64,000 nt of DNA, taken from positions 1 to 64,000 of the IMG/VR virus record IMGVR_UViG_3300006749_000011. One strand, 5' to 3'. Source of the DNA: a virus. Position numbers and translations under genes: made by a program. Of the stretch, positions 2,553-22,900 are shown one piece after another (position 1 is the stretch's first letter; each line of letters starts with the position of its first letter). The notes under the pieces are model-generated. The model made no database searches. It was not told the origin of the DNA and was given only the letters and a program-made list of their open reading frames with translations.

Positions 2553-3224
2553 ATGAACTGGTTAGAAGAATCCGTTAAAAAGTCAAAAAAACTAAAGGAT
2601 CATTATATGCTAGGTGATGTTAACATATACGTCAAAGATCAACTTCCTGAGAATGTTGATATTGATTTTGTTATTCGTTATGTTGCTAAGCGTTTACCTA
2701 ACCATGTTTTAACCAACATAGACATTATTTATGTTGGTCACTTTCAAGATCTTGTTGATCGAGATGTTAACGCTTTGTGGCAAAACGGAGCAATTTATAT
2801 TACAAATGAACAAGACAATGAAATGGATATGATCGATGATTTAATTCATGAGATTGCTCACTCAAATGAAAAACAACATGAACAAATTATCTATGAAGAT
2901 GGAAAGCTTGAAAGAGAGTTTTTGGTCAGAAGAAAGAAAATAGCGTTTATCCTAAAAGATAAAGGTTATAATTTACCAACAGGCTTTATTTATAACTCAG
3001 CTTATGATAAGTTAGTTGATGACTTTCTCTATCAAGAAGTTACTTACGAAACCCTTTGGCAATTAGTCCCTGGGATCTTTCCTTCACCTTATGCTGTTAC
3101 CTCTTTAAGAGAGTATTGGGCAAAAGGATTCGAACAGTTTTATATGGGAGAACAAGAATCTCTTAGAAAAACCTCACCAGTTTTATTTTCCAAGTTGATG
3201 CAATTATATAACTTGGAGGATTAA
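2553..3224 (+). CDS. Zincin-like metallopeptidase-fold protein
   Basis: HEIAH (HExxH) plus downstream REYWA glutamate, the usual third zinc ligand. Confidence 0.6.
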   Translation: MNWLEESVKKSKKLKDHYMLGDVNIYVKDQLPENVDIDFVIRYVAKRLPNHVLTNIDIIYVGHFQDLVDRDVNALWQNGAIYITNEQDNEMDMIDDLIHEIAHSNEKQHEQIIYEDGKLEREFLVRRKKIAFILKDKGYNLPTGFIYNSAYDKLVDDFLYQEVTYETLWQLVPGIFPSPYAVTSLREYWAKGFEQFYMGEQESLRKTSPVLFSKLMQLYNLED

Positions 3225-3997
3225 TGCATATTTCATATTCAGAACTTAAAACATGGGCAGATTGCGCATGGAAACACAAACTTATCTACATCGAGAAGGT
3301 TAACAAATTCGTTGGAAACGAATATACAGCTTTTGGTAGAGCCTTGCACCTATTGTGTGAACACGCAATAGAAGAAAAGATACAAGATGAGGATTATGAT
3401 GACTTTTTTGAGTTAGCTTTTGAAAAAGAGTTGATGGATCTCATGAGAAAAAATGTTGAATTAAATCAACAAATGACTGATGACATGCTTGGTCAAGCAA
3501 GACGAATAGCACCTCAAATTATTCCACAAGTAATCAATAAGTTTGAAAACTATGAAGTGTTCTCAGTTGAAGAAAGACTTTACCTTGATATTCCTGAGCT
3601 TGAAGATTGTAAGTTCAAGGGGTTTATAGATTTAGTTTTGAAAACAGATGATGGCAAATATCATGTTATCGATTGGAAAACTTGTTCTTGGGGTTGGGAT
3701 GCAAAAAAACGTTCTGATAGATATGTCACTTATCAATTGACTCTTTATAAAAAATTCTTTTGCTTAAAGCACGACATTGATCCAAAACTAGTTGAAACCC
3801 ATTTCGCTCTTTTAAAAAGAACAGCAAAAAAAGATAATGTTGAGATTTTTCGTGTTACCTCTGGTCCTCGTAAAGTTAAAAATGCAACTGACCTTCTGGT
3901 AAAGGCAGTGAAGTCAATTTATAACAAAGCACATTTCAAAAACAGAGGGTCGTGCACTTATTGTGAATTTAAGAATACTGAGCACTGCCCAAGATAA
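3224..3997 (+). CDS. PD-(D/E)XK nuclease, Cas4/RecB-like
   Basis: ISYS...C at the N-terminus, GFID...IDWKT, YQLxxY, and C-terminal CxxC...C (Fe-S staple pattern). Confidence 0.9.
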   Translation: MHISYSELKTWADCAWKHKLIYIEKVNKFVGNEYTAFGRALHLLCEHAIEEKIQDEDYDDFFELAFEKELMDLMRKNVELNQQMTDDMLGQARRIAPQIIPQVINKFENYEVFSVEERLYLDIPELEDCKFKGFIDLVLKTDDGKYHVIDWKTCSWGWDAKKRSDRYVTYQLTLYKKFFCLKHDIDPKLVETHFALLKRTAKKDNVEIFRVTSGPRKVKNATDLLVKAVKSIYNKAHFKNRGSCTYCEFKNTEHCPR

Positions 3998-4071: not shown

Positions 4072-5316
4072 TTGTCAAAAATAAAAATATTAACACTTTC
4101 CGACCACCCTCTATCACCTTCCGGCGTTGGAACTCAAACGAAGTATTTCTGCGAGTCCCTTCTTAAAACCGGAAGGTATTCTATTATTAGCATGGGTGGC
4201 GCTATAAAACATCAAAATTATAATCAAGTTCTTGTTGACCCATATGGAGAAGATTGGAAAATAATTCCTGTCGATGGTTATGGAACACAAGAAATGATTC
4301 GCTCAATTATAAGACTAGAAAAGATTGAACTTATCTGGTTTATGACTGACCCCCGATTTTGGGGCTGGCTTTGGGAGATAGAAAATGAAATTCGTCCATT
4401 ATGCAAGATGGTTTACCATCATGTGTGGGATAATTATCCCTATCCTTATTTTAACAGGGACTATTACTTATCTAACGACCATGTGGTTAATATTTCGAAA
4501 CTTACTCATGATATTGTAAAAACAGTAGCACCAGAAGTTTCATCTACATACTTGCCACACTCAGTTAATCCAGATATTTTCAAGCCTTTGAGTGACCTTC
4601 AGATTGAAGAGATACGTACAAGTTCTCTACAAGAAGAAGATCGTTCAAAGGTTATTTTCTTTTGGAATAACAGAAATGCTAGGAGAAAACAATCTGGGAC
4701 TCTTATATGGTGGTTTAAAGAGTGGCTTGACAAAGAGGGCCTACATGATAAATCAAGCCTTATAATGCACACTGAACCTAAAGACCCTCATGGACAAGAT
4801 TTAGAACATATTATAGAACATCTAGGTCTAAATGATAGGCAAGTAATGCTCTCAACTCAAAAGATACCACCAGAAAGCTTAGCTCAAATTTATAATATGG
4901 TTGATTGTACAATTAATATATCAGACGCTGAAGGTTTTGGCTTAGCTACATTAGAGTCTTTATCTTGTGGTACTCCAATTGTTGCCACAATGACCGGCGG
5001 GCTTCAGGAACAAGTCACAGATGGAGAAAGTGAATTTGGTATTGGCCTCTACCCGAGAACCAAATCTGTCATTGGCTCTCAAGCAGTTCCCTACATTTAT
5101 GAAGATAGGGTAGACAAAGCACAATTTCACTCTGCTTTATCTAAGATATACAAAATGGGTAAAGAAGAAAGACGAAAGCTTGGGACTCTTGGTAGAGAAC
5201 ATGTTGAGAAAAATTACAATTTTAACAAACTACAAGAAAAGTGGGTTGAAATAATTGACAAAATTATAAAAAAAGAAGAAAGTTACAACGGAATTAGATT
5301 CAAGGAGGTTGCATAA
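4072..5316 (+). CDS. Glycosyltransferase, GT4 (GT-B)
   Basis: N-terminal SGVG loop, RNxxRK, EGFGLxxLESxxCG motif. Confidence 0.9.
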   Translation: MSKIKILTLSDHPLSPSGVGTQTKYFCESLLKTGRYSIISMGGAIKHQNYNQVLVDPYGEDWKIIPVDGYGTQEMIRSIIRLEKIELIWFMTDPRFWGWLWEIENEIRPLCKMVYHHVWDNYPYPYFNRDYYLSNDHVVNISKLTHDIVKTVAPEVSSTYLPHSVNPDIFKPLSDLQIEEIRTSSLQEEDRSKVIFFWNNRNARRKQSGTLIWWFKEWLDKEGLHDKSSLIMHTEPKDPHGQDLEHIIEHLGLNDRQVMLSTQKIPPESLAQIYNMVDCTINISDAEGFGLATLESLSCGTPIVATMTGGLQEQVTDGESEFGIGLYPRTKSVIGSQAVPYIYEDRVDKAQFHSALSKIYKMGKEERRKLGTLGREHVEKNYNFNKLQEKWVEIIDKIIKKEESYNGIRFKEVA

Positions 5317-6551
5317 TGAAAAAGAAAGTATATATTAAAGCACCAATTTTATCACAATCAGGATATGGAGAACAATCTAGATTTGCTTTGAGAGCCCTTA
5401 AGAGCAGAGAAGACCTTTTTGATATCTATATACAACCTATATCTTGGGGTAAAACTGGATGGATTTGGAAAGACAATGAATTTAGACAATGGATGGATTC
5501 TAGAATTAAAATAACTCAAGAGTTGCTTTCTCAAAAATCCTTGACTCCTGAAATTAGTTTGCAAATAACAATTCCAAATGAGTTTGAAAAATTATGTCCT
5601 GTTAATATTGGCTATACCGCTGGTATTGAAGCGACTAGGTGCTCACCCCAATGGTTACCAAAGTGCAATGAAATGGATAAAGTGTTAGTTGTTTCTAATC
5701 ACGCAAAAACATCCATTATAGACACAGTTGCAAACGCAAAAAACAATCAAACTGGTGAAGAGTTCCCATATAAATGTGAAACCCCTGTTTCTGTTGTGTG
5801 GGAAAACACTGAAAGACATGACCCTGAGCCCTTGGAACAACTAGAATTGGAATATAACAATAATTTCTTAGTGGTTTCGCAACTTGGTCCAAGAAAAAAT
5901 TTTGAAAACACTGTCTGCTGGTTCGTTGAAGAGTTTATTGATCAAGAAGTAGGATTAGTTGTTAAAACTAACTTTAAGTCAAACTCAGTAGGTGATTTCT
6001 CAAAAGTAGAGGAGCACCTCAAGGCTTTACTTAAAAACTACAAAAATAGAAAATGTAAAGTTTACCTGTTACATGGTGACCTAACTGAAGGACAAATGAC
6101 CACTTTGTACACGCACCCTAAGATATCTGCTTTGATTAACATATCTCATGGTGAAGGTTTTGGCTTACCAATGTTTGAAGCTGCGAGAGAATCCTTGCCC
6201 ATCATCACAGTAGGGTGGTCCGGCCAGCTTGATTTTCTCTGTCATAATGGAAAAGAATATTTTCAATCTGTAGATTTTTCATTACGACCAATTCAAGACC
6301 AAGCTGTTTGGAATGGTGTTTTAGAAAAAGATTCTATGTGGGCTTTCGCAGACCAAGGTTCTTATAAAATGGCTTTAAGATATACCTTAAAAAATCTAGA
6401 CAAAGCAAGAGAACAGGCACTAGAATTACAAAAGAAAGTAAAAGATGAATTCTCAAACGATAAACTGTATAAACTGTTTATAGATGAAGTGTTGGGGTTT
6501 GACTCCTCTGTGATAAAACCTGAAGAAGAAGTGGTACTGGAGTTTGAATGA
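5316..6551 (+). CDS. Glycosyltransferase, GT4 (GT-B)
   Basis: SGYG, RKN, GEGFGLPMFEAA motif. Confidence 0.9.
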   Translation: MKKKVYIKAPILSQSGYGEQSRFALRALKSREDLFDIYIQPISWGKTGWIWKDNEFRQWMDSRIKITQELLSQKSLTPEISLQITIPNEFEKLCPVNIGYTAGIEATRCSPQWLPKCNEMDKVLVVSNHAKTSIIDTVANAKNNQTGEEFPYKCETPVSVVWENTERHDPEPLEQLELEYNNNFLVVSQLGPRKNFENTVCWFVEEFIDQEVGLVVKTNFKSNSVGDFSKVEEHLKALLKNYKNRKCKVYLLHGDLTEGQMTTLYTHPKISALINISHGEGFGLPMFEAARESLPIITVGWSGQLDFLCHNGKEYFQSVDFSLRPIQDQAVWNGVLEKDSMWAFADQGSYKMALRYTLKNLDKAREQALELQKKVKDEFSNDKLYKLFIDEVLGFDSSVIKPEEEVVLEFE

Positions 6552-8158
6552 AAAAAATAGTCTTTATAGCTGACTTTTTTGAACACCAAGTTCAAGGAGG
6601 AGCAGAAATATGCGACAGTGTCTTGATAAAAACACTAAAAGAGATGGGTTGCAAAGTTGCAACCTTTAATTGTAATGAGTTTGGTGTTAAACATTTGGAA
6701 CTTTATCTTAACAATGGGTATAACTTCATAGTATCCAATTTTATGCTACTTCATGAGCATGTAAAAAGAAGATTAGAAGCAGTTGGTCATAGATATGTTA
6801 TAATGGAGCATGATCATAAATACATAACTAATAAAAACCCTGCACAATTCAAAAATTTCATTGCTCCCAAACATAACCTAATGAATGTGTCTTTCTACAA
6901 AGCAGCAAAAAGAGTACTATGTCAAACATCCAAACACCAAGAAGTGTTACAAAAAAACTTAGAGATATCAAATGTGGAGTCTCTAAGTTTTTCTCTTTGG
7001 TCTGACGAGCAATTAGACTTTTTAAGAAGTGTAGATACAACAAAAAACGGCAAAGCTTTTATTATGAAAGACCCAAATCCTATAAAAGGCTTACATAAAG
7101 CAGAAGAGTATTGTAAAAAAAACAACATTGAATATGATTTGATAGACAAACTTCCATACAAACAATTTATAAAAACTTTGGCAAAATATGAGAAGTTTGT
7201 TTTTTTTCCTACTTCTCTAGAATCATTCTCAAGAGTTATACTAGAGGCAAGGATGCTAGATTGTAAACTATTGACAAACAATCTCAATGGTTGTACATAC
7301 GAAGAATGGTTCAAAAAATATAAGGGTAAAGAGCTGATTAATTTAGTTCAATCCCAAAGACAAAGTGTAGCGGGTAGAATACTAGATTATTTGTTTAAAC
7401 ATGAAGAAACAAAAGATGGAGATGTAACCGTTATTCTTAATTGCTACAGAAGACCATACAATCTAAAAATGCAAATTGAAGCAATAAGAAATCAAACTGT
7501 CAAACCAAAGCAAATATGGCTTTGGATAAATCATCATGAAGATAATGAAGGTTTTGACTTTTCTGATATAGAAGCTGATAGAGTGTTTAAGAATGATTAC
7601 AACTGGAAGTTCTACGGCCGTTTCGCAGCTGCGTTATTAGCAGATACAGAATTTGTAGCAATGTATGATGATGATACAATTCCTGGAGCAAAATGGCACA
7701 ATAACTGCCTTGAAACTATGAAGACCCATGAGGGTATACTTGGTTCTGCTGGGGTCATTCTAAACGGTTCTAGGTACATGCAACACGATAGATGTGGTTG
7801 GCCCACAAGAAATGAAAAGGTGACACCTGTTGACCTTGTTGGACATTCTTGGTTTTTCAAAAGAGAGTGGTTAAGATACCTATGGCAAGAAAAACCTATT
7901 ACTTGGGATAACGGAGAAGACATACAATTTGGATTTATGGCAAAGATACATGGAGGAATACAAACATATTGCCCACCACATCCTGCTGATGATAAATCCA
8001 TGTATGGATCAATCCTTGGAAACGAATTAGGTATTGATGACAAAGCTACATCAAATAATAAAACTGTTTCACACCAACAATTCTTTTCTGAAAGAGATGA
8101 GTGTGTACAAGAAGGATTGAAAAAAGGGTGGAAAACCGTTAGAGGTGTTAAGCTGTGA
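6548..8158 (+). CDS. Two-domain glycosyltransferase (GT-B-like N-terminus + GT2/GT-A C-terminus)
   Basis: GGAE and ESFSRVILEA in the N-half; VTVILNCYRR, DDD and GED in the C-half. Confidence 0.8.
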   Translation: MKKIVFIADFFEHQVQGGAEICDSVLIKTLKEMGCKVATFNCNEFGVKHLELYLNNGYNFIVSNFMLLHEHVKRRLEAVGHRYVIMEHDHKYITNKNPAQFKNFIAPKHNLMNVSFYKAAKRVLCQTSKHQEVLQKNLEISNVESLSFSLWSDEQLDFLRSVDTTKNGKAFIMKDPNPIKGLHKAEEYCKKNNIEYDLIDKLPYKQFIKTLAKYEKFVFFPTSLESFSRVILEARMLDCKLLTNNLNGCTYEEWFKKYKGKELINLVQSQRQSVAGRILDYLFKHEETKDGDVTVILNCYRRPYNLKMQIEAIRNQTVKPKQIWLWINHHEDNEGFDFSDIEADRVFKNDYNWKFYGRFAAALLADTEFVAMYDDDTIPGAKWHNNCLETMKTHEGILGSAGVILNGSRYMQHDRCGWPTRNEKVTPVDLVGHSWFFKREWLRYLWQEKPITWDNGEDIQFGFMAKIHGGIQTYCPPHPADDKSMYGSILGNELGIDDKATSNNKTVSHQQFFSERDECVQEGLKKGWKTVRGVKL

Positions 8159-9339
8159 AAAGTAATATCAAATTTATAAACCACGCTTGTTTTTTAATTG
8201 AAAATGATGACGGAGATGTGCTGTTTGATCCGTGGTTTTTTGGTAAAGTTTTTAATAATTCTTGGAGCTTGTTGAGAGAAACAGAAGACATTGATTTAAG
8301 CAATGTGAAGTACGTAATATTTACACACGAACATCCAGACCATCTACATTGGCCTACATTAAAAAAAATATCCAACAACAGTAGACATAAAATAAATGTC
8401 TTAGTTCCACTTAGAGAAAACAAAAACATTGTTGAAAATATTAGAAAACTAGGATGCAAATGTGCTGAAATTCCAAATAATTTAGAAGTTAAATTGGGCA
8501 ACTTTATGCACATAACAAATTATACCACTGGTCATGATTCAGCTTATGTCTTTAAAATAAATGATAAGGTTTATTTAAACCAAAATGATTGCCAGTTAAG
8601 TAATAAACAATGTGAAACAATATCTAAAAAATATCCAAATATTGATTTTTGGATGATACAATTTTCACTAGCTGGATATTACGCTAACGAAGCTGACCAT
8701 GAAGGACTCCAGAGAGCGAAAGATTTTCACATAAATATGATAAAAAGTTATCACAATTTTTTTAAACCACGGATTACTATTCCTTTCGCTAGTTTTGTAT
8801 TTTTCTGCAAGAAACACAATTCTTTTTTAAACAAATGGATAATAGACATAGAAGAGATAGGCAGTAAACTTAATGAAGTTGAAATACAAATTTTATTTTA
8901 TAACGATGAAATAAAAGATAACGACTATGACGAAAGAAATAATATAAACAAACAGAGATGGAACAAGGTTTTTAATAATAAAAAAGAAATTATCGAACAC
9001 CAGACAAAAACCGATGAAGAAATATTATTTGAGAGTGGAAAGTTTATCGATCTAGCGAACTCTAAAAATGGATACAAGCCTGGTTTGCTTTTTCTTGATC
9101 TTTACGACAAAACTAAAAGATACAAACTTGATCTAACAAATAGAGTCGCAAAATTTGTTGAAAAACAAGAACAGGATGATGCAAATGTTGCTGGAAAACT
9201 ACATTCCGAAGAGCTACTGTTTTTTTTAAGATTTCCATGGGGAGCTGACACTTTAAATATTACTTCTTGTTTTGAAATAAAAAATGAGGAACTTTGGAAA
9301 AACATACTACACTTTAAGGATCACTTATATGAGAGATAG
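8155..9339 (+). CDS. Metallo-beta-lactamase-fold protein (UlaG/CMP-Neu5Ac-hydroxylase-like)
   Basis: NHACF...DPW, THEHPDH metal motif, HDS, NQND, IPFAS. Confidence 0.75.
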   Translation: MKSNIKFINHACFLIENDDGDVLFDPWFFGKVFNNSWSLLRETEDIDLSNVKYVIFTHEHPDHLHWPTLKKISNNSRHKINVLVPLRENKNIVENIRKLGCKCAEIPNNLEVKLGNFMHITNYTTGHDSAYVFKINDKVYLNQNDCQLSNKQCETISKKYPNIDFWMIQFSLAGYYANEADHEGLQRAKDFHINMIKSYHNFFKPRITIPFASFVFFCKKHNSFLNKWIIDIEEIGSKLNEVEIQILFYNDEIKDNDYDERNNINKQRWNKVFNNKKEIIEHQTKTDEEILFESGKFIDLANSKNGYKPGLLFLDLYDKTKRYKLDLTNRVAKFVEKQEQDDANVAGKLHSEELLFFLRFPWGADTLNITSCFEIKNEELWKNILHFKDHLYER

Positions 9340-10144
9340 AAACTATAAAAAAGAATTTGATAAAATGCTTGAGCTTGTAAAAGGAGATGAAGGTTTTTCT
9401 TTTGCAAGATTTTCCGATGGAGAAAGAACAGTAATGTTTAACAAGAAGCTAGTAATAGCAGAAAATTATTTTATCCAAGAAGATGTTTATGGAGATAGAA
9501 AAATTTCCGCACCAAGACCATATCTAGCAGAAGAAAGAAAAGAGTTTGATCCTAAAAAACACCACTTTTATCATAAAAAATTACTAGAAGCGTATAGGTT
9601 CAATAAAAAAAATTACTTTAAAGGAATTTGTGGAGCAAACGAAACAGAATTTGGACCATGTCACAAAATCATGCTTGACTTGCATGGAGGAGATAATGAC
9701 TCTTTGACATATTCAAATGTTCTACAAAATGGAAACTACTCAGATTTTATAGAAAGGATGGTGCCTGAGTTCAGCTCACAAACAGTATTTTTTGTTTCAA
9801 ATAGAAATTCAAATGTTGATAACTTGCCTTTTGATGTAGAGAGGTTTTTTCCAATTGGTAACAACTGTATGATAAATGATTATAAGCTTGTGGACGAGAT
9901 AAAAGAATTTATACAAAAGGAAAATGTAAAAAACTCTTTATTTTTGTTCTCAGCTGCCACACTTAGCAATTTTTTGTGTTATGAGTTATATAGCGAATTT
10001 GATGATAACAAGTATATGGATATTGGTTCTACTTTGGGGCCTCTTCTTTCTTTAAAAGGTTGGATGAATTCTAGAAATTATTTATTATCATATTGGTATG
10101 GACAACCTGGGCACCATATCAAGCAGGAGGATGTATGGAGCTAG
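9329..10144 (+). CDS. GT-D fold (DUF1792-like) glycosyltransferase
   Basis: FARFSDGE and DIGS resemble GT-D RFGDGE / DIGH; start moved to ATG 9329 (AAGGA RBS). Confidence 0.6.
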   Translation: MRDRNYKKEFDKMLELVKGDEGFSFARFSDGERTVMFNKKLVIAENYFIQEDVYGDRKISAPRPYLAEERKEFDPKKHHFYHKKLLEAYRFNKKNYFKGICGANETEFGPCHKIMLDLHGGDNDSLTYSNVLQNGNYSDFIERMVPEFSSQTVFFVSNRNSNVDNLPFDVERFFPIGNNCMINDYKLVDEIKEFIQKENVKNSLFLFSAATLSNFLCYELYSEFDDNKYMDIGSTLGPLLSLKGWMNSRNYLLSYWYGQPGHHIKQEDVWS

Positions 10145-10518
10145 TACAGTGTGAAGAAAAGTATTGGGAAGATGTTAGACTACTAAGAAATATGGATGGA
10201 GTAAAACAAGGCTTCATACAACAAGAAGAAATTACTCCTGAACAACACATAACTTATATGAAAAAAAATAGTAATTTTTTTTATATTTGTGTTGACAAAG
10301 AAGAATTTTTAGGGTATACTGGAGTTATTAATAAAGACATACGTGTTGCTACCCACCCTAAGCATCAAAAAAAAGGTGTTGCTAAATTTATGATTAATGA
10401 AATAATGAAGATACACCCTGATGCTTTTGCAAAAGTTAAGCTAGAAAACAAAGCCAGTTTGAAACTTTTTGAGTCTTGTGGTTTTAAAAAGAAATTTTAT
10501 ATACTGGAGAAAGAATGA
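10135..10518 (+). CDS. GNAT N-acetyltransferase (PseH-like)
   Basis: QKKGVA acetyl-CoA motif, NxASxxLFExxGF; start moved to ATG 10135 (AGGAGG RBS). Confidence 0.85.
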   Translation: MELVQCEEKYWEDVRLLRNMDGVKQGFIQQEEITPEQHITYMKKNSNFFYICVDKEEFLGYTGVINKDIRVATHPKHQKKGVAKFMINEIMKIHPDAFAKVKLENKASLKLFESCGFKKKFYILEKE

Positions 10519-11129
10519 GACACAATCCTTTTGAAATAGTTAGAATGTTTGAGGAAACTGTAGCTGATTATACCGGTGCACCATATGCTGTATCGACTGA
10601 CAATTGCACTGATGCCCTTTTAATTTGCTGTGAGTACCTTGGGGTAGAAGAAGTCATAATACCTTCTAAAACCTACCTTTCGGTCCCGCAATCAATAATG
10701 CATGCTGGTGGTAAAGTTAAGTTTAAAGACTACCTATGGAATGGCGTTTACCAATTAGAGCCCTATCCAATATGGGATGCTGCAAAGAGACTTACATCTG
10801 GAATGTATATCCCGGGTTCCTTTATGTGTCTTTCTTTTCACATTAAGAAACATTTAAAAATTGGAAAAGGTGGAATGATTCTTACAGACAATAAAGATGC
10901 TGTAGAGTGGTTAAAAAAGGCTCGTTATGAAGGAAGAGGTCCTGTTAAGTATCACGAGGACAATATACAAATAAATGGCTATAATGCCTATATGTCTCCT
11001 GAAATGGCTGCAAGAGGTTTAATGCTCATGCAAAACTATCCAGAACATATGCCAGACTTACCAGAAGAGCCTTATTATAGAGATCTTCGTGAATTTGACT
11101 TATTTAAAAACATTGAGGTGATAGGGTGA
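10515..11129 (+). CDS. Short DegT/DnrJ/EryC1/StrS PLP sugar aminotransferase
   Basis: FE...YAV...CTDAL, DAA, SFHxxKHL (PLP lysine), GGMILT; only 204 aa. Confidence 0.85.
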   Translation: MRHNPFEIVRMFEETVADYTGAPYAVSTDNCTDALLICCEYLGVEEVIIPSKTYLSVPQSIMHAGGKVKFKDYLWNGVYQLEPYPIWDAAKRLTSGMYIPGSFMCLSFHIKKHLKIGKGGMILTDNKDAVEWLKKARYEGRGPVKYHEDNIQINGYNAYMSPEMAARGLMLMQNYPEHMPDLPEEPYYRDLREFDLFKNIEVIG

Positions 11130-11935
11130 AAATAGCAGTTTGTTTACATGGATATTATGGAACAGTTAGTACTGGTGACTTTTCCACTTCTAAAGGTGGA
11201 AAACAACACATCGAAGAACAGATTTTAAGTAAATGCAAAAATGCAGACTTTTATGTTCATTGTTGGCAACCAGAATTTAAGCAAGAAATAATCAACAACT
11301 ACAATCCAAAACAAAGTATTTTTGAAGAACAAATAGACTTTAAAAAAATTTGCTTAAAAAACAAAATTTATCAAAACTATTTTGATGAACTGTTTCAAAG
11401 AGAAAAAACAATGTATAAAAATGCTAATATCTACAGGATACTTAGTTTTTATTATTCTAGATGCGAATCTATTAAAATGGCACTAGATAAAGGTTATGAT
11501 TGGATTATCACCACTAGGTTTGATATATCTCAAAGGGGCGGTGATGAAGTTAATCAAATCAGGTTTTTAGTTGATCAAGAAAGAGACTATCTTTACACAA
11601 CTGAGTGGAATCAAAAAAATGCTGGATACGGAGATATGTGGTTCTACGGTTCAAATGAAATCATGAAAGAGTATTCAAAGATTTATAAAGCAGCTTTATC
11701 TGATTTCAAACCATTATCAAAATATGAAAAAACAGTAACAACAGCTTGGCCAGATTCAAATTATTTTGATGTACATAGTTTTTCTGATACAAGACAATTT
11801 ACAAACGAAGTTGACAAAAAAGAAAAAAGTAAATCATTAATGAAATTTCCTAAGTGGAGAGTAACTGATAGTCATTTATATCATAAATGGTTTTGCATGA
11901 ACAATGGTTTGTATGAAAAAACAAGGTGGGTGTAA
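11126..11935 (+). CDS. Putative glycosyl/polyol-phosphate transferase
   Basis: MKIAVCLHG...HCW...YDxIIxxRFD...D.WFYG pattern typical of uncharacterised transferases in glycan loci; position in operon. Confidence 0.5.
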   Translation: MKIAVCLHGYYGTVSTGDFSTSKGGKQHIEEQILSKCKNADFYVHCWQPEFKQEIINNYNPKQSIFEEQIDFKKICLKNKIYQNYFDELFQREKTMYKNANIYRILSFYYSRCESIKMALDKGYDWIITTRFDISQRGGDEVNQIRFLVDQERDYLYTTEWNQKNAGYGDMWFYGSNEIMKEYSKIYKAALSDFKPLSKYEKTVTTAWPDSNYFDVHSFSDTRQFTNEVDKKEKSKSLMKFPKWRVTDSHLYHKWFCMNNGLYEKTRWV

Positions 11936-12648
11936 TGGAGGCTTATGTATTTTATTCACATTATGATTATTCTGATATTTGGCCTCTTATGTTTGGGCAA
12001 AGTAGAAAGTTTTTATCTGATAAAAAGAAGTATCTTGTAACAAATAAGATAGAACAAAAATTAAGTAACGACTGGCAGGTCGTACTCTATAACGACAACA
12101 AACCTTATCAACAAAGAGTTTATGAAAGTTTAGAAAAAATAGATGAAGAAATTGTAATCTTTCATCATGAAGACATGTTTTTGTTAAACAATCCTAACTG
12201 GAAAGTCATGAATAATTTGATAGACTTAGTTAAAAATGAAAAAATTGATTTAATTAAGTTACTAAAAGCCTCATACGACAACAGAGAGCATTATAAAGAA
12301 AGAAATAATATTTTCTATAATCCTGAAAATCTATTATTTGCAATACAACCAACAATAATAAAAAAAGAAAATTTAACAAAAATCTATAAACACACAAAAG
12401 GTGACAATATTTGGCAATTTGAAAAAAATTCAAATTCATTAATTAACTATTTGAACTATTCTAGTTGCTATTATCACGAAGGAACAGAAAATAAAAGAGG
12501 TATGTTTCACTGGGATAGTAATGTATACCCTTATATTGCCACGGCAGTTGTAAAAGGTCAGTGGGATTTTGGAACATACAAAGAAGAATTAACAACTCTA
12601 CATAAAGAATATAATATAGACACAAAAAAGAGAGGTAAATATGTCTGA
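11935..12648 (+). CDS. Putative GT-A-type glycosyltransferase
   Basis: HED acidic motif, WQFE; TAATG coupling sets the start at 11935; operon context. Confidence 0.45.
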   Translation: MEAYVFYSHYDYSDIWPLMFGQSRKFLSDKKKYLVTNKIEQKLSNDWQVVLYNDNKPYQQRVYESLEKIDEEIVIFHHEDMFLLNNPNWKVMNNLIDLVKNEKIDLIKLLKASYDNREHYKERNNIFYNPENLLFAIQPTIIKKENLTKIYKHTKGDNIWQFEKNSNSLINYLNYSSCYYHEGTENKRGMFHWDSNVYPYIATAVVKGQWDFGTYKEELTTLHKEYNIDTKKRGKYV

Positions 12649-13372
12649 AAAAATGAAAGTTTTAATACCACTAGCTGGAGCTGGGTCTAGATTCTCCAAA
12701 GCTGGTTATAAAGACCCAAAACCATTGATAAATGTAGCCGGAAAACCAATGATTCAAAGAGTTATAGAGAACATAGGTCTAATAGAAAACGAGCATATTT
12801 TTATTGTTCAAAAAGCTCACATGAAAAAATACCCAAAAATGAAAGAATATTTATTGAGTTGTGTAAAAAACAGTGTTTTAGTAGAGATTGATTCATTAAC
12901 AGAAGGAGCTGCATGTACCACTTTATTAGCTAAAGAGCATATAAATAATGATCAACCACTTTTTATTGCAAATGCCGACCAATGGGTTGATTGGGACTCT
13001 AAACACTTCCAAAACTACTGCAAAGGATTAGATGGTTGTATACCTTATTTCTTATCAGATAGCCCAAAACACTCATACTCTAGAGTAGACTATAGTACTG
13101 GTAATATAACACAAGTTGCTGAAAAGCAAGTTATAAGTAATTTTGCCACAGTTGGAATGTATTATTGGGCTAAAGGTTCTGAGTATGTTTCTTGCGCAGA
13201 AGAGATGATAAAAAGAAATATTAGATTTAATAATGAATTTTATATATGCCCAGTATATAATATTTTAATTAATTCAAGAGGCGGAGTGGTAAAACCATAT
13301 CCAATTTATGAAATGAGAGGAATGGGAACACCGGAAGAGCTTGACAAATTTTTAACTAAACTGGAGAAATAA
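12641..13372 (+). CDS. Sugar/polyol-phosphate nucleotidyltransferase (NTP_transferase family)
   Basis: IPLAGAGSRF...PKPLI, EGAACT, NAD, AEK, EFY, GTPEE. Confidence 0.9.
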   Translation: MSEKMKVLIPLAGAGSRFSKAGYKDPKPLINVAGKPMIQRVIENIGLIENEHIFIVQKAHMKKYPKMKEYLLSCVKNSVLVEIDSLTEGAACTTLLAKEHINNDQPLFIANADQWVDWDSKHFQNYCKGLDGCIPYFLSDSPKHSYSRVDYSTGNITQVAEKQVISNFATVGMYYWAKGSEYVSCAEEMIKRNIRFNNEFYICPVYNILINSRGGVVKPYPIYEMRGMGTPEELDKFLTKLEK

Positions 13373-14562
13373 TGAAAATTTTTAGAAATATTAACGAGAT
13401 TAACAAAGACAAATACATTTTGTGTGATTATTTTTTATCTTCTAACAAAACACTTAGAGACGCTGCATGGGGTCTAAGTATAGGACAAAGTGTTGGGAAT
13501 CCCAATGTAAGAAATCACTGGGAAACCGATGAATTATTCGAGAATCATTCTTGTTTTGTGATTGGAGATGAAGAAGAATTAAAAACCAAAACTGAAGGAG
13601 AAGTCACTATTGCTTTTCCAATAGCAAATACAGACTTTAAGACTGATGGTATGTCACACCTATTATGTCAATTTATGGGTGGACAAATGGACATTGACAT
13701 TGTCAAAAAATGTCACCTTTTGAAAGTTTCTTTTCCCAAGCATATTGAAAATGATTACTTTTTAAAGCCAAAATACGGAATTAAAGGAATTAGAAAATTT
13801 ACCAGTACCCAAGACAAGCCTTTGTTCGGTGGTATTGTAAAGCCTAAAATTGGTGTTAATAGTGATATACTCTTAGAGATGGTAAAAGAGATGGTAGAAG
13901 GTGGTATTAATTTTATTAAAGAAGATGAAATTATGTCAAACCCTGCTTGTTGTCCGATTGAAGAAAGAGTGCCAAAAATTATGGAATACTTAAAAGATAA
14001 AGATGTAATTTATGCTGTTTGTATTAATTGTGATCCACATCATGTTATAGATAGAGTTAAAAGAGTTTATGAATTGGGAGCAAATGCTGTACATATTAAT
14101 TTTTGGAGTGGTCTCGGAGTCTATAAGTCAATCAGAGAACTGGATCTACCTATTTTCATTCATTTTCAAAAAAGTGGAGACAAGGTTTTAACAAACAAAA
14201 GTCATGATTATCATATCTCTTGGGATGTTATATGTGATTTTGCTGGTCTTATGGGTGTTGATTTCATACACGCAGGAATGTGGGGTGGTTATATGTCTGA
14301 TAATGAAGATGAATTGAGAGAAACTTTGAGAGTATTACACAACAGAGGAGTTATGCCGGCTCTAAGTTGTGGGATGCATGCAGGTCTAATAGAAGCCATA
14401 AACAAACGTTTTGGTATAGACTATATGGCTAACGTAGGTGGAGCTATACATGGCCATCCTGGTGGTTCTAGAAGCGGAGCTAAAGCGATCAAACAGTCTA
14501 TAGACAGAGAATATGGAAAAGAATATGAAATTGCTATTAAAAAATGGGGAATTGTTGAATGA
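13372..14562 (+). CDS. RuBisCO-like protein (form IV type)
   Basis: GIVKPKIG, GGINFIKEDE (carbamyl-Lys/Mg motif), DFIHAG, PALSCG, GGAIHGHPGG; 396 aa. Confidence 0.92.
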   Translation: MKIFRNINEINKDKYILCDYFLSSNKTLRDAAWGLSIGQSVGNPNVRNHWETDELFENHSCFVIGDEEELKTKTEGEVTIAFPIANTDFKTDGMSHLLCQFMGGQMDIDIVKKCHLLKVSFPKHIENDYFLKPKYGIKGIRKFTSTQDKPLFGGIVKPKIGVNSDILLEMVKEMVEGGINFIKEDEIMSNPACCPIEERVPKIMEYLKDKDVIYAVCINCDPHHVIDRVKRVYELGANAVHINFWSGLGVYKSIRELDLPIFIHFQKSGDKVLTNKSHDYHISWDVICDFAGLMGVDFIHAGMWGGYMSDNEDELRETLRVLHNRGVMPALSCGMHAGLIEAINKRFGIDYMANVGGAIHGHPGGSRSGAKAIKQSIDREYGKEYEIAIKKWGIVE

Positions 14563-14993
14563 TATTAATTTCCCACAGAGGAAACACAAATGGTGTAAAC
14601 AAAAAACTAGAGAATGACCCAGTTCATCTACAGTCCTTATCTGATATAGGAACCAATGTTGAGATAGATGTTTGGTTTGATGGAGAGCAATTGCTTCTTG
14701 GTCACGATGAGCCTAAACACAAAGTAGATTTAGATTTCTTACAAAATGAAAATTTTTGGTGTCATGCAAAAAATCTTTTAGCTTTAGAATATATGTTAGA
14801 AAATAAGATTCATTGTTTTTGGCACCAGTCTGATGATTACACTTTAACAAGTAATGGAGTCATATGGACTTACCCAAACAAATTAGCCACCAGTAAGTGT
14901 ATAATTGTTTGTAAAACATTTGAAGATACAGAATATTATTCAAACCTTAATATTCTTGGTATTTGTAGTGATTATATAGGAGAAATAAAATGA
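14559..14993 (+). CDS. Small GDPD/PI-PLC-like phosphodiesterase
   Basis: ISHRGN...EN...VEIDV...LGHD...HAKN...GICSD. Confidence 0.75.
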   Translation: MILISHRGNTNGVNKKLENDPVHLQSLSDIGTNVEIDVWFDGEQLLLGHDEPKHKVDLDFLQNENFWCHAKNLLALEYMLENKIHCFWHQSDDYTLTSNGVIWTYPNKLATSKCIIVCKTFEDTEYYSNLNILGICSDYIGEIK

Positions 14994-15943
14994 AACTAGT
15001 AGTAATAACAGGCTGTCTAGGCCTAATAGGTTCACACTTAACAAGACAATGTTTAGAAAAAGGTTGGCAAGTGTATGGTATTGACAAGTGCACATATGCA
15101 TCCAACGTACAATTTTTACCTGATTTTTATAAATATAATAACTTTACTTTTGTACAAGAAGATATCGCAGATTTAAAACATCTTCCTCATTGTGATTACG
15201 TTATAAATGTAGCCGCTGAATCTCATGTTGGCAATAGTATAATAGAATCTCAAGACTTTATAAAATCAAATGTTGAAGGTGTTAAAAATTTGTTAGATTT
15301 AATAAGAAAAAAACCTGCAAACATTGAACAAAGACCTGTATTCTTCCACTTTAGCACTGATGAAGTGTATGGCGATATTACCGAGGGCGAACATATCGAG
15401 ACAGATATTTTAAAACCTTCAAATCCATACTCTGCATCAAAAGCAGCAGCTGATATGTTGGTGTATGCTTGGGCTAGAACTTACGACATTGAGTATGTTA
15501 TTCTTAGACCCACTAACAACTATGGCATTGGACAGTATCCTGAGAAACTGATCCCTATTTGTGTAAAACAATTAATGCGTGGTAAGAAAATTAGATTACA
15601 CGACAAAGGGCTACCAATTAGAAACTGGCTTCACTCTGACGACACAGCAAACGCTGTTGTTACAATAATAGAATCAGGAATCACTAATCAAGTTTTTAAT
15701 GTAGCAGGTGGTTTTGAACAAAAAAACATTGAAACTACAATTCAAATTATAAAAGCTTTCTATGGAAACACACATAGAAACATTGAATCTTATCTAGACT
15801 TAGGTTACAAAAGACAAGGCCAAGACGTAAGGTATGCATTAAATGATAATAGATTAAGAAACTTGGGATGGAAACCAAAAAAGAAATTTGAGGAAGAACT
15901 TCCAAAAATAGTAGAATACTACAAAAATAATTTTAAATGGTAA
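14990..15943 (+). CDS. rfbB: dTDP-glucose 4,6-dehydratase (extended SDR)
   Basis: TGxxGxIG, AAESHV, STDEVYG, YSASK, NNYG..QYPEKLIP. Confidence 0.9.
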   Translation: MKLVVITGCLGLIGSHLTRQCLEKGWQVYGIDKCTYASNVQFLPDFYKYNNFTFVQEDIADLKHLPHCDYVINVAAESHVGNSIIESQDFIKSNVEGVKNLLDLIRKKPANIEQRPVFFHFSTDEVYGDITEGEHIETDILKPSNPYSASKAAADMLVYAWARTYDIEYVILRPTNNYGIGQYPEKLIPICVKQLMRGKKIRLHDKGLPIRNWLHSDDTANAVVTIIESGITNQVFNVAGGFEQKNIETTIQIIKAFYGNTHRNIESYLDLGYKRQGQDVRYALNDNRLRNLGWKPKKKFEEELPKIVEYYKNNFKW

Positions 15944-19973: not shown

Positions 19974-22900
19974 ATGACAACTAATAATTACAGAGATTTA
20001 CAAGAAACAGTTTGCGATACAGACAAAGAAAAGTCATTAGAAGAGTATTTGGAAGAAACTCTAGGTGAAGACTTGACCTTGGCTGATCCAGATATCTGCC
20101 CTGATTGTATCCCTAACAATGCTTTTGTTGAACCAGACATTACGGTACACGAAGGTGTGTATTATGATGAAAAAGAGTGTGACTATGTTGTTGTATTTAC
20201 CGCTCCAAATGGAGTCAATGACATATTCAAAGTACTAAACTTTGAATCCATTGATGAATATATAAAAAAACACAAAACAAACAAAATAGACACTGTGTTG
20301 AGATTTGGTCTGAAAAAGATCACACTTGAGTATAGTAAAACACAACAGAACGAATTTTATAATATTAAATCCAAGTCTGTTGACGAACCATTAGAGGCTG
20401 TTGCTAGGTTTGATTATTTATCAGACCCTACTGTCTCCTCAAACAGTCCGGTAAAAATAAGAATTAAGGTGTCAAAAAGAGTGATTGATGCCCTGCCAAT
20501 GGAAGAATCAGGTGAAGAAGATGAGACTATTCAAGCCGGTATAGACAAAGTAGAGATTGATGCTATTAAATTTTATGGTATGATGCTTAGAATGAGTTTT
20601 GGTTTAAGAGTGTATTCAAGTTATTGGAATCTACACCATACAAAAAGCAATGGGTTTCTTTATAAGAAAAAAGATGAGACAAAAAGTCCTATATTGCCAA
20701 ATAAAATCTATAGTTCTGATAACAACAAAGTCACACTAGAATCTGTAATTATGGATTTTAGAGCAGAGCTAACTGAGCTAATAAGAGACAAAGGATATAG
20801 AATCAATATTTATGCTTCTTCGCTTCCTTGGGATAATAAAAAAATAGAGAAAATAAGAATATTGTTTGACAACAGTGATCCTGAGAACTTATATAAAATA
20901 AAAAGAATATCCGTAAAACCATACGGGTGTAGATTTAGACCAATACACAGAGCAAACAAAAACCCAGATCGTTTTAAATCAGGATTCAAAGTTTTTAATG
21001 CCATGGCCTTGATTGCCAATATAAATGATATAGACGATGATTTAAGAGCTCCTGAACCTCCTACATGGCACGAGTTTTTACAGAAATATCTAGTACCAGC
21101 TGTAGCTTTAGAGTATGGAAACGAAACAGGAATAGTATCAGACCAAACATCTGCTTTGGCTTGTGCACTAGACTATTTTGACACAACTGCTTTTATACAA
21201 GGTGCTCTTGGTACTTTGGAGGCTGTATTTGGACTTTTAGCTTTCGAGAGCAACAAAGCTGCTTGTGAAGCCACACAAGGAAAATTAGACTCAAAAAATG
21301 ACCCACCAGAAGAGTTTGACTTTGATAGGGCTTGGACCAAGTATTACAACTCAGGTGATTCTTTTATATTAGAAATATACAAAAGACTTAGTAACATTGG
21401 TGACGGTAACAGTAACTATGGTGGAGGACAAGGGTTATACAGAGTTATAAATGCTTTAACTTTTTGTGAACTAACAAATTTAATTAAAAAATTAATTGAA
21501 TGTTTGCTTAGAGGAAAACCTTTTGAAGAAGTAGTCCCTTTAATCGTTAATCGTTTGATGAAAGATTTAAGCATGCGGCACTTAGGAAAATTATTAACAT
21601 CTCTTCCACCAGACCAAAGAGCAGAGGTTACTAGAGAAGTGTCCGCTATATTAGGACAACCCGCACCAGAGCCATGGTCTGATTCATGGGCTGAAGGCGG
21701 CTCAGCAGATGTCGAAGCAGCAAGCAATTTAGAATTCGGCACAGATAAAAGTGGACAAATTAAACAAACTTCAACAAAAGAAAGAGACGAGCTAACAAAA
21801 AAGAAAGATGAGTATGACCCAGACGAAGCTCAAAATATGATAGACGAAAAACAACAAGAAGTTGATAACTATACAGAAGAACTAAGACAAGAAGAAGAAA
21901 AGCGTGATGCCCTAGGCCCCGATCCGGTTCTTGTAAATACACAATCAGAAGACCCAATGCAGACTTCTTATGGAGGAAGTACGTCTATATACAAATCAGG
22001 CACTGATGATAAATTAAGACAAGCCCAGGATGACTTGGCAACCTTGGAACAAGAAAAAACGCATACTGAACGGAATATCAAAGCAAAAGAACAAACAATA
22101 GCAGACAACGAAGATGTCGAAGGTTATACTTTTGGATTTGTTTCAGGCCAAGCCGGTACATCAACACAACAGCAACTAAAACAAATGAACTTTGATGGAA
22201 AAATGAGCCAAGTTGTACAAAAAATAGCAGGAGCTTATATTGAAGCTTTCATGAAAGTTGTAGATCCTAGTGATCTTTTAGGATACTTAGACAAGCTACC
22301 AGTATCTACAGTTGTAAGAAATCTTTTAGCCATAATATTTCAAAGAGCGTATTGCCCAACACCTACTCTCAAAGCCTTTAGTGATATTGGTCAACTAATA
22401 CCAAAGTTTAAAATTGACATATGTGATCCAACATTTGCAATAAAAATACCAAAGCTTCCAAGATTACCAAGACTTATACCAAACTTTAGAGAAGAACTGT
22501 TTAAGAGAGTAAAACAAAAAATAATGGAATTAATAATGAAGCTCTTACTTAGCATAGTTATTAAAATTATTAAACTAATTGATGATGCTATTTGTAAAGG
22601 TTTGAATGCTTTGCTAGAAGGTCAAAATGATTTCCTAAATTTTCTAGGAAACTCTCTATGTGATGATGATGATCCTTCAAAAAACAATAGAAACCCCCAA
22701 CGCGCATTGGACGATGCTCTAAGAAAAGCTGGCTTAGATCCAAATGATAGAACTGTTAATTGCTTATCAAATTCAGTTGCTTCAGTAATGACAAAAAGAG
22801 AAATGATGTCTGCGTGTATAGGCACTTTGAATACACCTGGAGCTTATGATAGAGTTGCTAGATCAATACAAGTGAGCTGTCCGGACTTAGGAGATATGTT

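What the first reader, a model, noticed from the sequence alone, without database searches (positions are those of the whole stretch)
11126..14993. Phage RuBisCO-like protein wired into a nucleotide-activated glycan pathway
Seen: the RLP (13372-14562) is translationally coupled to a nucleotidyltransferase (TAATG) and a small GDPD-like gene (ATGA), inside a glycosyltransferase operon. By eye alignment to form I numbering, it keeps K175/K177 (KPK), K201-x-D203-E204 (KEDE), H327, S379 and G403/G404. It has lost the carboxylase residues: E60->G, N123 absent, H294->Q, R295->K, loop-6 K334->Y. Established: form IV RLPs do enolate chemistry without fixing CO2 (MtnW enolase, methylthioribulose-1-P isomerase, enzymes of apionate and hamamelose catabolism). 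No methionine-salvage or sugar-catabolic genes are present in this window. Inference: this RLP is biosynthetic. It would make an unusual (isomerised or branched) sugar/polyol phosphate, which the nucleotidyltransferase activates, the 11126/11935 proteins transfer and the GDPD-like protein trims. That would be a new RLP role in viral glycan synthesis.
Basis: partly seen in the sequence, partly recalled or inferred. Interest (0 to 1): 0.9.

Follow-up and report, generated by a model that had tools for sequence, protein, structure and literature searches.

The report
Phage RuBisCO-like enzyme in sugar-activation cassette
A marine T4-like phage carries an intact RuBisCO relative that cannot fix CO2; it always travels with, and is sometimes fused to, a sugar-activating enzyme, and it sits where sister phages carry an ordinary sugar-phosphate enzyme, so it most likely prepares a sugar phosphate for a surface glycan, a role never tested for this enzyme family.

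Summary
13372-14562 encodes an intact RuBisCO-like protein (RLP). It keeps the Mg/carbamate site and the phosphate site and has lost five carboxylase residues. Its start overlaps the stop of a nucleotidyltransferase (NTP), and its stop overlaps the start of a 144-aa gene that folds as a miniature glycerophosphodiesterase (GDPD).

The RLP belongs to one well-supported clade with a fixed signature (Q at 294, Y at 334). An NTP of one family lies near it in 37/37 viral and 31/32 cellular loci (SAR11, Legionella, Nonomuraea, DPANN, CPR). Fusions exist as NTP-RLP, RLP-NTP, NTP-cupin and NTP-GDPD.

New here: the NTP + mini-GDPD pair is the wider module, found on at least 590 viral contigs. Of its 80 closest loci only 8 carry the RLP; 52 carry a beta-phosphoglucomutase-like HAD and 4 an RpiB isomerase fused to the NTP. 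A near-identical sister phage has HAD-NTP where this window has NTP-RLP. So the RLP most likely converts a sugar phosphate that the NTP then activates.

The substrate is unknown. A 'trimming' role for the GDPD and an 'unusual' product are not supported.

The phage RLP clade was reported in 2018/19 with no function (Jaffe et al., PMC6389311). This scan has noted the cassette before on other DNA.

The parts
13372..14562 (+). RuBisCO-like protein (396 aa), 'form IV-like' NTP-linked clade. Mg/carbamate triad, K175/K177, H327, S379 and G403/G404 are kept. E60, N123, H294, R295 and K334 are replaced by G, G, Q, K and Y.
   Evidence: PF00016 E 7e-32. Below all NCBIfam cut-offs. Signature and clade. 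dN/dS about 0.08 against L002, the one RLP pair not saturated at synonymous sites.
12641..13372 (+). Sugar-phosphate nucleotidyltransferase (243 aa). It is the hub of the cassette and the only NTP_transferase in the 85.8-kb record.
   Evidence: PF00483. Not RmlA: TIGR01208 scores 37.9 against a cut-off of 320. Nearest structure is 4evw, an uncharacterised pyrophosphorylase. Linked to the RLP in 37/37 viral and 31/32 cellular loci. Only copy in the record.
14559..14993 (+). Miniature GDPD-like phosphodiesterase (144 aa) with H6, R7, E18, N19, E35, D37, H49, H69, K71, H89 and D92 invariant (D50 nearly so) in the family.
   Evidence: Alignment A2. Profile against PDB GDPD, E 0.003. AF2 pLDDT 95, with GDPDs as top Foldseek hits. 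Reciprocal HMM hits with full-length PF03009 GDPDs of DPANN cassettes.
11126..11935 (+). 269-aa protein of a recurrent partner family ('F5', DUF7796 lead). The N-terminal half models as a GT-A-like nucleotide-sugar transferase fold. Candidate transferase.
   Evidence: F5 HMM E 5e-20. The family occurs in 14/37 viral and 12/48 cellular RLP loci, and in 28/52 HAD-type loci. Model pLDDT 63, weak GT8/GT6/NTP-transferase matches. Atlas lead.
11926..12648 (+). 240-aa protein of unknown function, conserved beside the NTP in the closest sister phages.
   Evidence: 70.6% identical in L098; also found in L099, L104, L145 and L150. No Pfam or NCBIfam hit. Only a weak GT2 lead from the Atlas.
14990..15943 (+). 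RmlB-like NDP-hexose 4,6-dehydratase (317 aa). Its start overlaps the stop of the mini-GDPD gene (ATGA).
   Evidence: TIGR01181 scores 292 bits against a cut-off of 365; PF16363 and PF01370. 89.6% identical in the HAD-type sister phage L098.
10093..11129 (+). GNAT acetyltransferase (141 aa) and a short DegT-like protein (204 aa) just upstream. They belong to the same sugar-modification island.
   Evidence: Both are conserved at about 82% in L098.
4072..8158 (+). Two GT4 glycosyltransferases and a 536-aa protein with a weak GT2 match, at the head of the island.

Best explanation
The RLP is a Mg2+-dependent enolising enzyme (isomerase or epimerase type, not a carboxylase). It acts on a keto-sugar phosphate and hands its product to the adjacent nucleotidyltransferase, which makes an NDP-activated sugar (or sugar/polyol phosphate) for a glycan island.

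It is one of three interchangeable front ends of a widespread 'nucleotidyltransferase + mini-GDPD' cassette: (a) a beta-phosphoglucomutase-like HAD, (b) an RpiB isomerase plus cupin, (c) the RLP, usually plus the same cupin. The cupin is absent in this window.

Shown: the residues, the linkage, the fusions, the slot replacement, and purifying selection.
Inferred: that the RLP acts before activation, the type of chemistry, and that the product enters a glycan.
Unknown: the substrate, the nucleotide, and the job of the phosphodiesterase.
For: - Active site. The carbamate/Mg triad, K175, K177, H327, S379 and G403/G404 are invariant across the clade. Q294, Y334 and the GQS motif at the E60 position are fixed clade signatures.
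- The clade is monophyletic, with SH-like support 100.
- NTP of the same family within 5 kb: 37/37 viral loci and 31/32 cellular loci with at least 3 kb of flank.
- Fusions: NTP-RLP in at least 8 protein clusters, confirmed by Pfam for P0031, and RLP-NTP in P0124.
- Further fusions: NTP-cupin in 15 or more loci, and NTP-GDPD in L053.
- Among the 80 viral loci closest by mini-GDPD, 8 have the RLP, 52 have HAD_2 next to or fused with the NTP, and 4 have an NTP-RpiB fusion.
- The cupin accompanies the RLP (39/45) or RpiB (4/4) but never HAD (0/52). Other accessory genes occur at equal rates in both types.
- Sister phage L098 has flanks 70-95% identical. It carries HAD-NTP-GT2-u239 where the window has NTP-RLP.
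- The HAD is nearest to beta-phosphoglucomutase and sugar-phosphate phosphatases.
- Purifying selection: pN is 0.05-0.18 against saturated pS.
- Glycan context in cells: GT2 and methyltransferases in CPR loci, and LicD plus ABC-2 exporter genes in Legionella.
- Published precedent for an RLP isomerase followed by an adjacent cupin: the MTA-isoprenoid shunt (PMC5893883).
Against: - No biochemistry exists for any member.
- Fusions in both orders do not give the order of the steps.
- This window lacks the cupin that 32/37 viral loci have.
- The RmlB-like dehydratase coupled downstream would fit a plain hexose-1-P nucleotidyltransferase.
- Legionella loci lack any GDPD and carry LicD instead. This points to a CDP-alcohol type donor rather than a glycosyl donor, so the product class may differ between lineages.
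- The trees are FastTree only.
- 'Cellular' MAG contigs in the crown group may be misbinned phage.
Confidence: 0.55

Rival explanations
1. The RLP acts after activation, on the NDP-sugar. For example, it enolises an NDP-4-keto-6-deoxyhexose made by the RmlB-like dehydratase, as an epimerase or ketoisomerase. The cupin would then be an FdtA/RmlC-type partner.
For: The RmlB-like gene is coupled downstream. An SDR of this superfamily is in about half of the cassettes. The cupin has an HxH..E motif like sugar-nucleotide ketoisomerases. NTP-RLP fusions are compatible with this order.
Against: The RLP slot is filled by HAD and RpiB, and both act on sugar monophosphates. The SDR is missing from half of the cassettes, including minimal SAR11 cassettes set between housekeeping genes. 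All known RLP and RuBisCO substrates are small phosphates (established knowledge).
Confidence: 0.17
2. The cassette makes a CDP-activated sugar or polyol phosphate that is attached through a phosphodiester, in teichoic-acid or phosphocholine style. The GDPD-type enzyme makes or edits that phosphodiester. The RLP supplies the phosphate ester, as in the first reader's polyol version.
For: LicD sits divergently next to RLP-NTP in three Legionella species and a Tatlockia MAG. A GDPD-type gene is in 37/37 viral cassettes and is once fused to the NTP. There are weak IspD-type matches for the NTP.
Against: No LicD in the window or in the viral loci examined. Legionella has LicD but no GDPD. No reductase is conserved that would make a polyol. 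The GT-A-like F5 and the RmlB-like gene point to glycosyl donors.
Confidence: 0.2
3. The RLP is a salvage or catabolic enzyme (MtnW enolase, MTRu-1-P isomerase, apiose-type) carried as an auxiliary metabolic gene. It would be unrelated to its neighbours.
For: The best PDB and NCBIfam similarities are to MtnW-type and form III proteins at about 30% identity.
Against: All curated cut-offs are missed: 159 against 409, 124 against 514, 118 against 700. The catalytic Lys of MtnW is absent. No mtn or catabolic neighbours were seen in the window or in the 85 loci examined, while the NTP is almost always there.
Confidence: 0.03
4. The RLP is a decaying or non-catalytic relic.
For: Five carboxylase residues are lost.
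Against: The frame is intact. Where synonymous sites are not saturated, dN/dS is below 0.1 for the RLP and the NTP; pN is 0.05-0.18 against saturated pS otherwise. There are 28 invariant columns across 20 sequences down to 30% identity, among them the metal site. The substitutions are the same throughout the clade.
Confidence: 0.02

Closest known systems
'Form IV-like' RuBisCO-like proteins of phages and Beckwithbacteria (Jaffe, Castelle, Dupont, Banfield; Mol Biol Evol 36:435; PMC6389311)
   Same: A divergent RLP clade on large myovirus-type contigs from many environments, grouping with Beckwithbacteria sequences and lacking carboxylase residues. The clade found here contains a Beckwithbacteria MAG sequence (L043, 56% identity) and phage contigs of about 170-216 kb.
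   Different: The paper leaves the function open and does not mention a nucleotidyltransferase, cupin or GDPD partner in the passages read. Here the clade also holds SAR11, Legionella, Nonomuraea, Turneriella and DPANN genes. With an outgroup root, the phage genes are nested inside the cellular ones.
DeepYkr RLP of Rhodospirillum rubrum / Rhodopseudomonas palustris (5-methylthioribulose-1-P 1,3-isomerase) with its adjacent cupin methylsulfurylase (PMC5893883)
   Same: An RLP that isomerises a ketose phosphate by enolisation and is followed by an adjacent small cupin. The product line there ends in the MEP pathway, which contains an NTP_transferase-fold cytidylyltransferase (established knowledge).
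   Different: That pathway is sulfur salvage with mtnP/mtnA. Here there are no mtn genes, the partner is a sugar-phosphate nucleotidyltransferase, and the setting is glycan islands. Homology of the two cupins could not be tested because no reference sequence was on hand.
MtnW/YkrW 2,3-diketo-5-methylthiopentyl-1-phosphate enolase (PDB 2oej, 2zvi, 4nas)
   Same: Best-scoring solved relatives, E 5e-34 to 3e-29. They share the Mg/carbamate triad and K175.
   Different: The catalytic Lys at the N123 position is Gly-Gln here. The scores are far below the equivalog cut-offs. The gene context differs.
Bifunctional sugar-phosphate isomerase / nucleotidyltransferase enzymes such as type II PMI-GMP (ManC/AlgA: NTP_transferase + cupin isomerase; established knowledge)
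   Same: An NTP_transferase fused to a C-terminal cupin occurs in 15 or more relatives. The logic of converting a sugar phosphate and then activating it within one gene cluster or one polypeptide is the same.
   Different: The cupin is only about 107 aa and matches no PMI family above threshold. An RLP and a mini-GDPD have no counterpart in the GDP-mannose pathway.
Glycerophosphodiester phosphodiesterases (PF03009; PDB 1v8e, 7e0v, 1o1z)
   Same: The fold and the H-R / E-x-D / H-D catalytic motifs. Full-length PF03009 proteins take the same place in DPANN cassettes.
   Different: 144 aa instead of about 220-250. No Pfam hit. It sits in a biosynthetic cassette next to a nucleotidyltransferase rather than in lipid or teichoic acid turnover.

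Membership tests
Bona fide RuBisCO (forms I-III) | Complete set of catalytic residues E60, N123, K175, K177, K201, D203, E204, H294, R295, H327, K334, S379 | tested here: not met
   G, G, K, K, K, D, E, Q, K, H, Y, S in the columns where bona fide-like sequences show the canonical set.
Bona fide RuBisCO (forms I-III) | Score above the curated model cut-off (TIGR03326 form III, 497 bits; NF003252, 438 bits) | tested here: not met
   160 and 143 bits.
MtnW/YkrW DK-MTP-1-P enolase | Equivalog score (NF007095, 409 bits; TIGR03332, 514 bits) | tested here: not met
   159 and 124 bits.
MtnW/YkrW DK-MTP-1-P enolase | Catalytic Lys at the position of RuBisCO N123 (K98 of the Geobacillus enzyme; from memory of Imker et al. 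2007) | tested here: not met
   In the HMMER alignment to 4nas, 'GK' of the enolase-type protein faces 'GQ' here. G104-Q105 holds in 88 of 104 clade members.
MtnW/YkrW DK-MTP-1-P enolase | Methionine-salvage gene neighbours (mtnA, mtnK/P, mtnB, mtnX, mtnD) | tested here: not met
   None among the annotated neighbours in the window or in the 85 related loci. Not every ORF was scanned.
OiaX/OiaC apiose-pathway RLPs | Equivalog score (NF042437, 700 bits) | tested here: not met
   118 bits.
DeepYkr RLP (MTRu-1-P 1,3-isomerase) | Clusters with R. rubrum / R. palustris RLP1, next to the cupin methylsulfurylase and mtnA/mtnP | tested here: inconclusive
   No reference sequence could be fetched (one search names the control genomes but gives no loci). 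A cupin neighbour exists in 32/37 viral relatives but not in this window. No mtn genes were seen.
'Form IV-like' phage/Beckwithbacteria RLP clade (Jaffe et al.) | On large phage contigs, grouping with Beckwithbacteria RLPs, apart from other form IV clades | tested here: met
   Monophyletic clade with SH-like support 100. It holds the window, 36 IMG/VR loci and the Beckwithbacteria MAG L043. The paper's own sequences were not compared directly.
RmlA glucose-1-phosphate thymidylyltransferase (for 12641-13372) | Equivalog score (TIGR01208, 320 bits) | tested here: not met
   37.9 bits; no other RmlA model is listed. The nearest structure is the uncharacterised 4evw, not RmlA. Substrate specificity itself cannot be tested here.
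GDPD, PF03009 (for 14559-14993) | Pfam model match | tested here: not met
   No hit at E up to 10.
GDPD, PF03009 (for 14559-14993) | GDPD fold and the catalytic His-Arg, Glu-x-Asp, His-Asp motifs | tested here: met
   pLDDT 95, top Foldseek hits are GDPDs with TM(query) 0.41-0.61. The motif residues H6, R7, E35, D37 and H49 are invariant and D50 is nearly so. Profile hit to 7e0v. Reciprocal HMM hits with PF03009 proteins of sister cassettes.

The most novel reading that the evidence does not exclude
The RLP, with the small cupin where present, is a mutase-free route to an activatable sugar phosphate. By successive enolisations it would move the carbonyl along a pentulose or hexulose phosphate until it lies next to the phosphate-bearing carbon. 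A ketose-1-P to aldose-1-P isomerisation, of the MtnA/E2b2 reaction type, would then give the sugar-1-phosphate that the nucleotidyltransferase needs. This would replace the beta-phosphoglucomutase-like HAD of sister cassettes. It would be the first biosynthetic role for the RuBisCO fold, and it would be spread by phages among SAR11, Legionella, CPR and DPANN.
Probability: 0.15. Interest if true: 0.85.

Novelty: new variant of a known kind. Interest (0 to 1): 0.68.

Why it matters
Every RuBisCO-like protein with a known function works in salvage or catabolism. A clade locked to nucleotide-sugar activation would give the fold a biosynthetic role.

It would also explain a phage RLP clade that has stood without function since 2018. 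And it would add a new entry step to glycan precursor synthesis in very abundant marine organisms (SAR11 and their phage-sized viruses), in Legionella, and in the reduced CPR and DPANN lineages.

The natural swaps between RLP, HAD and RpiB give a direct experimental handle: the three cassette types can be compared product by product.

Tried and rejected
Contexts came from the search for related loci instead.
- Complex prediction on RLP + NTP gave no verdict. It counts neither way.
- Reference RLPs of known function could not be fetched. The control genomes ring but give no loci, and Tabita et al. 2007 is not held. The tree therefore labels outgroups only by catalytic-residue signature. The nearest outgroup proteins (P0162, P0175 and others) also miss every curated cut-off.
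- F5 (11126-11935) is not LicD-like by hhalign. 11926-12648 is not an F5 paralogue. The F5 profile found nothing meaningful in the PDB.
- A large loop-6 deletion was considered and dropped: 31 residues between the H327 and S379 positions, against 36 in form III-like sequences.
- The cupin was sought in the window and in the whole record and not found. No HAD_2 was found either.
- No GenBank phage of 50,697 encodes a relative of the RLP, and DNA similarity to known phages is negligible. No cultured model phage is therefore on hand.
- RNA. One seawater metatranscriptome run holds a 371-base contig, about 96% identical, that crosses the NTP/RLP junction at 13054-13424. An RNA library can hold DNA, so this is only a weak hint of co-transcription.
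- Literature searches for an RLP linked to nucleotidyl- or cytidylyltransferases, polysaccharide or SAR11 islands found nothing relevant.

Full report
WHAT IS THERE

The window is part of an 85.8-kb IMG/VR virus record. It comes from a large T4-like phage with a terminase, a baseplate wedge protein and an SbcC-like nuclease. The nearest cultured relatives by terminase are Flavobacterium and Microcystis myoviruses, at about 44% identity.

Contigs at 99% identity or more to the region occur in marine metagenomes of two further studies (runs X4, X5). A third study (X6) holds contigs at roughly 90-99%.

From 4072 to 15943 all genes lie on the + strand and form a sugar island:
- two GT4 glycosyltransferases and a protein with a weak GT2 match;
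- a metallo-beta-lactamase-fold protein and a weak GT-D-like protein;
- a GNAT acetyltransferase and a short DegT-like protein;
- 11126-11935 and 11926-12648, both without a family;
- a nucleotidyltransferase ('NTP', 12641-13372);
- the RuBisCO-like protein ('RLP', 13372-14562);
- a 144-aa gene (14559-14993);
- an RmlB-like 4,6-dehydratase (14990-15943).

THE RLP

PF00016 matches at E 7e-32. All curated models are missed by far: form III 160 bits against 497, MtnW 159 against 409 and 124 against 514, OiaX 118 against 700. The best solved relatives, at about 30% identity, are MtnW-type and form III proteins.

I mapped the residues on a 183-sequence alignment in which bona fide-like sequences carry the canonical residues in the relevant columns.
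- Kept: K175, K177, K201, D203, E204, H327, S379, G403, G404.
- Replaced: E60 to G, N123 to G, H294 to Q, R295 to K, K334 to Y.

The MtnW catalytic lysine position is Gly-Gln. The by-eye reading of the first stage was therefore correct in every residue. By established RuBisCO enzymology, this protein can bind Mg2+ through a carbamate and enolise a keto-phosphate, but it cannot carboxylate.

A CLADE DEFINED BY ITS PARTNER

Thousands of relatives exist in metagenomes. An exhaustive representative search shows a separate family above about 36% identity.

On the tree, all 104 sequences with the G..Q..Y signature form one clade with SH-like support 100. A truncated 105th sequence falls inside it. 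In a 20-sequence alignment reaching down to 30% identity, the metal site, Q266, Y307 and a GQS motif at the E60 position are invariant.

Fetched loci:
- 36 IMG/VR loci.
- 59 loci from species-representative genomes. These include a complete Pelagibacter chromosome, Legionella maceachernii, L. drozanskii and L. nautarum, Nonomuraea rosea, Azospirillum oleiclasticum, a Turneriella chromosome, CPR bacteria (one of them Beckwithbacteria) and many DPANN archaea.

Partners within 5 kb of the RLP:

| Partner | Viral loci | Cellular loci with at least 3 kb of flank |
|---|---|---|
| NTP of one family | 37/37 | 31/32 |
| GDPD-type protein | 37/37 | 22/32 |
| Cupin of about 107 aa | 32/37 | 10/32 |
| Family of 11126-11935 ('F5') | 14/37 | 9/32 |

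Gene order and orientation vary, so the linkage is selected rather than inherited synteny.

The eight loci whose RLP is below 32% identical lack the NTP.

Fusions all centre on the NTP:
- NTP-RLP in at least eight protein clusters, and RLP-NTP in P0124;
- NTP-cupin in 15 or more loci, and NTP-GDPD in a Micrarchaeota protein.

The RLP and the NTP are under strong purifying selection: pN is 0.05-0.18 while synonymous sites are saturated.

With an outgroup root, the deepest branches are cellular (Legionella/Francisellaceae, Turneriella/Nonomuraea, SAR11 + DPANN), and the phage genes sit in the crown. This favours cell-to-phage acquisition. It rests on a FastTree topology, and some MAG contigs may be phage.

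THE 144-AA PROTEIN

It has no Pfam hit. The family alignment shows invariant H-R, E-N, E-x-D, G-H and H-x-K motifs (the Asp after G-H is nearly invariant). Its profile hits GDPD 7e0v. The model has pLDDT 95, and its best structural matches are GDPDs.

In DPANN and some other loci a full-length PF03009 GDPD takes its place, and the two families find each other by HMM. It is a miniature GDPD with an apparently complete catalytic set.

WHAT THE RLP IS LIKELY FOR: THE SLOT ARGUMENT

Scanning IMG/VR with the mini-GDPD profile gave at least 590 contigs. The 80 closest loci break down as follows:
- 8 carry the RLP;
- 52 carry a HAD_2 domain fused to or directly before an NTP of the same family;
- 4 carry an NTP fused to RpiB (ribose/galactose isomerase), followed by the cupin.

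The HAD is nearest to beta-phosphoglucomutase and sugar-phosphate phosphatases.

The cupin goes with the RLP (39/45) or RpiB (4/4) and never with HAD (0/52). F5, TylF-like methyltransferases, RmlB-like SDRs, the 240-aa protein and DegT occur at similar rates in RLP-type and HAD-type cassettes.

Locus L098 is a sister phage whose flanking genes are 70-95% identical to the window, with the dehydratase at 89.6%. Between the 240-aa gene and the mini-GDPD it has HAD-NTP-GT2-u239 where the window has NTP-RLP. Its NTP is only 48% identical.

On an NTP tree the partner type is clustered but switches several times.

The simplest reading has four parts:
- The NTP + mini-GDPD pair is the core module.
- The RLP (with the cupin), RpiB (with the cupin) and HAD are alternative enzymes that deliver the sugar phosphate.
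- The RLP therefore works on a sugar phosphate before activation.
- The NDP-product is of the same general kind in all three types.

A published precedent for 'RLP isomerase, then adjacent cupin' is the MTA-isoprenoid shunt (PMC5893883).

In this phage the cupin and HAD are absent from the whole record, and 12641-13372 is its only NTP_transferase. The coupled RmlB-like dehydratase may thus use its product.

WHAT REMAINS OPEN

The substrate, the nucleotide and the role of the phosphodiesterase are unknown.
- Legionella clusters lack a GDPD but carry LicD divergently beside RLP-NTP, plus ABC-2 exporter genes. This hints at a CDP-type donor and a phosphodiester linkage there.
- The GT-A-like fold of 11126-11935 (low-confidence model) and the dehydratase hint at a glycosyl donor here.
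- The NTP is not RmlA by model score. Its nearest structure is an uncharacterised pyrophosphorylase.

WHAT IS KNOWN

Jaffe et al. (PMC6389311) reported about 80 phage 'form IV-like' RLPs grouping with Beckwithbacteria and left the function open. The gene itself is therefore a new member of a published clade.

I found no paper that links it to nucleotidyltransferases or glycan synthesis. No deposited phage genome encodes it.

Earlier agents of this scan reached similar readings on other genomes. I re-tested their two main leads here, the Jaffe paper and the replacement by ordinary sugar-phosphate enzymes.

VERDICT

This is a new functional variant of a known enzyme family, not yet tested at the bench.

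Noticed in passing
window 10515-11129: A DegT/DnrJ-like aminotransferase of only 204 aa, where the family norm is about 370. It covers the N-terminal part up to about profile position 212. The short form is conserved at 64-82% identity and similar length in sister phages (L098, L099, L104, L145, L150), so it is not a fresh pseudogene.
   Followed up: partly
protein P0201: A 583-aa protein with an N-terminal TIR_2 domain fused to a full RuBisCO large-chain homologue (N and catalytic domains). This architecture looks like a defence-type fusion.
   Followed up: no
proteins P0170, P0236: Fusions of an IF-2B family protein (ribose-1,5-bisphosphate isomerase type) with a form III-like RuBisCO, 726 and 742 aa. 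Two consecutive steps of the AMP pathway sit in one polypeptide.
   Followed up: no
L055 5815-10724 (SAR11 single-cell genome) and its relatives L052, L054, L058, L059, L061: A minimal cassette of mini-GDPD, NTP, RLP, a second NTP and F5. In L055 it sits between thyX and mrp/hflKC housekeeping genes rather than in a large glycan island. The same five-gene order recurs in the other loci.
   Followed up: partly
L079 3886-9930; also L080, L084, L085 (Legionella/Tatlockia): A conserved cluster: 147-aa, 336-aa, 113-aa and 328-aa proteins without Pfam hits, then LicD, divergent from RLP-NTP (the 336-aa and 328-aa genes are absent from the Tatlockia locus L080). No GDPD or cupin was detected. In L079, ABC-2 exporter genes lie nearby.
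   Followed up: partly
window 1135-2472 and 3224-3997: A PIN-PhoH fusion protein and a PD-(D/E)XK nuclease lie just upstream of the sugar island.
   Followed up: no
window 19974-26450, 30122-36679, 36697-40554: Three very large ORFs (2158, 2185 and 1285 aa) around the baseplate gene, presumably tail fibre or baseplate proteins. The only one scanned (36697-40554) had no PHROG match.
   Followed up: no
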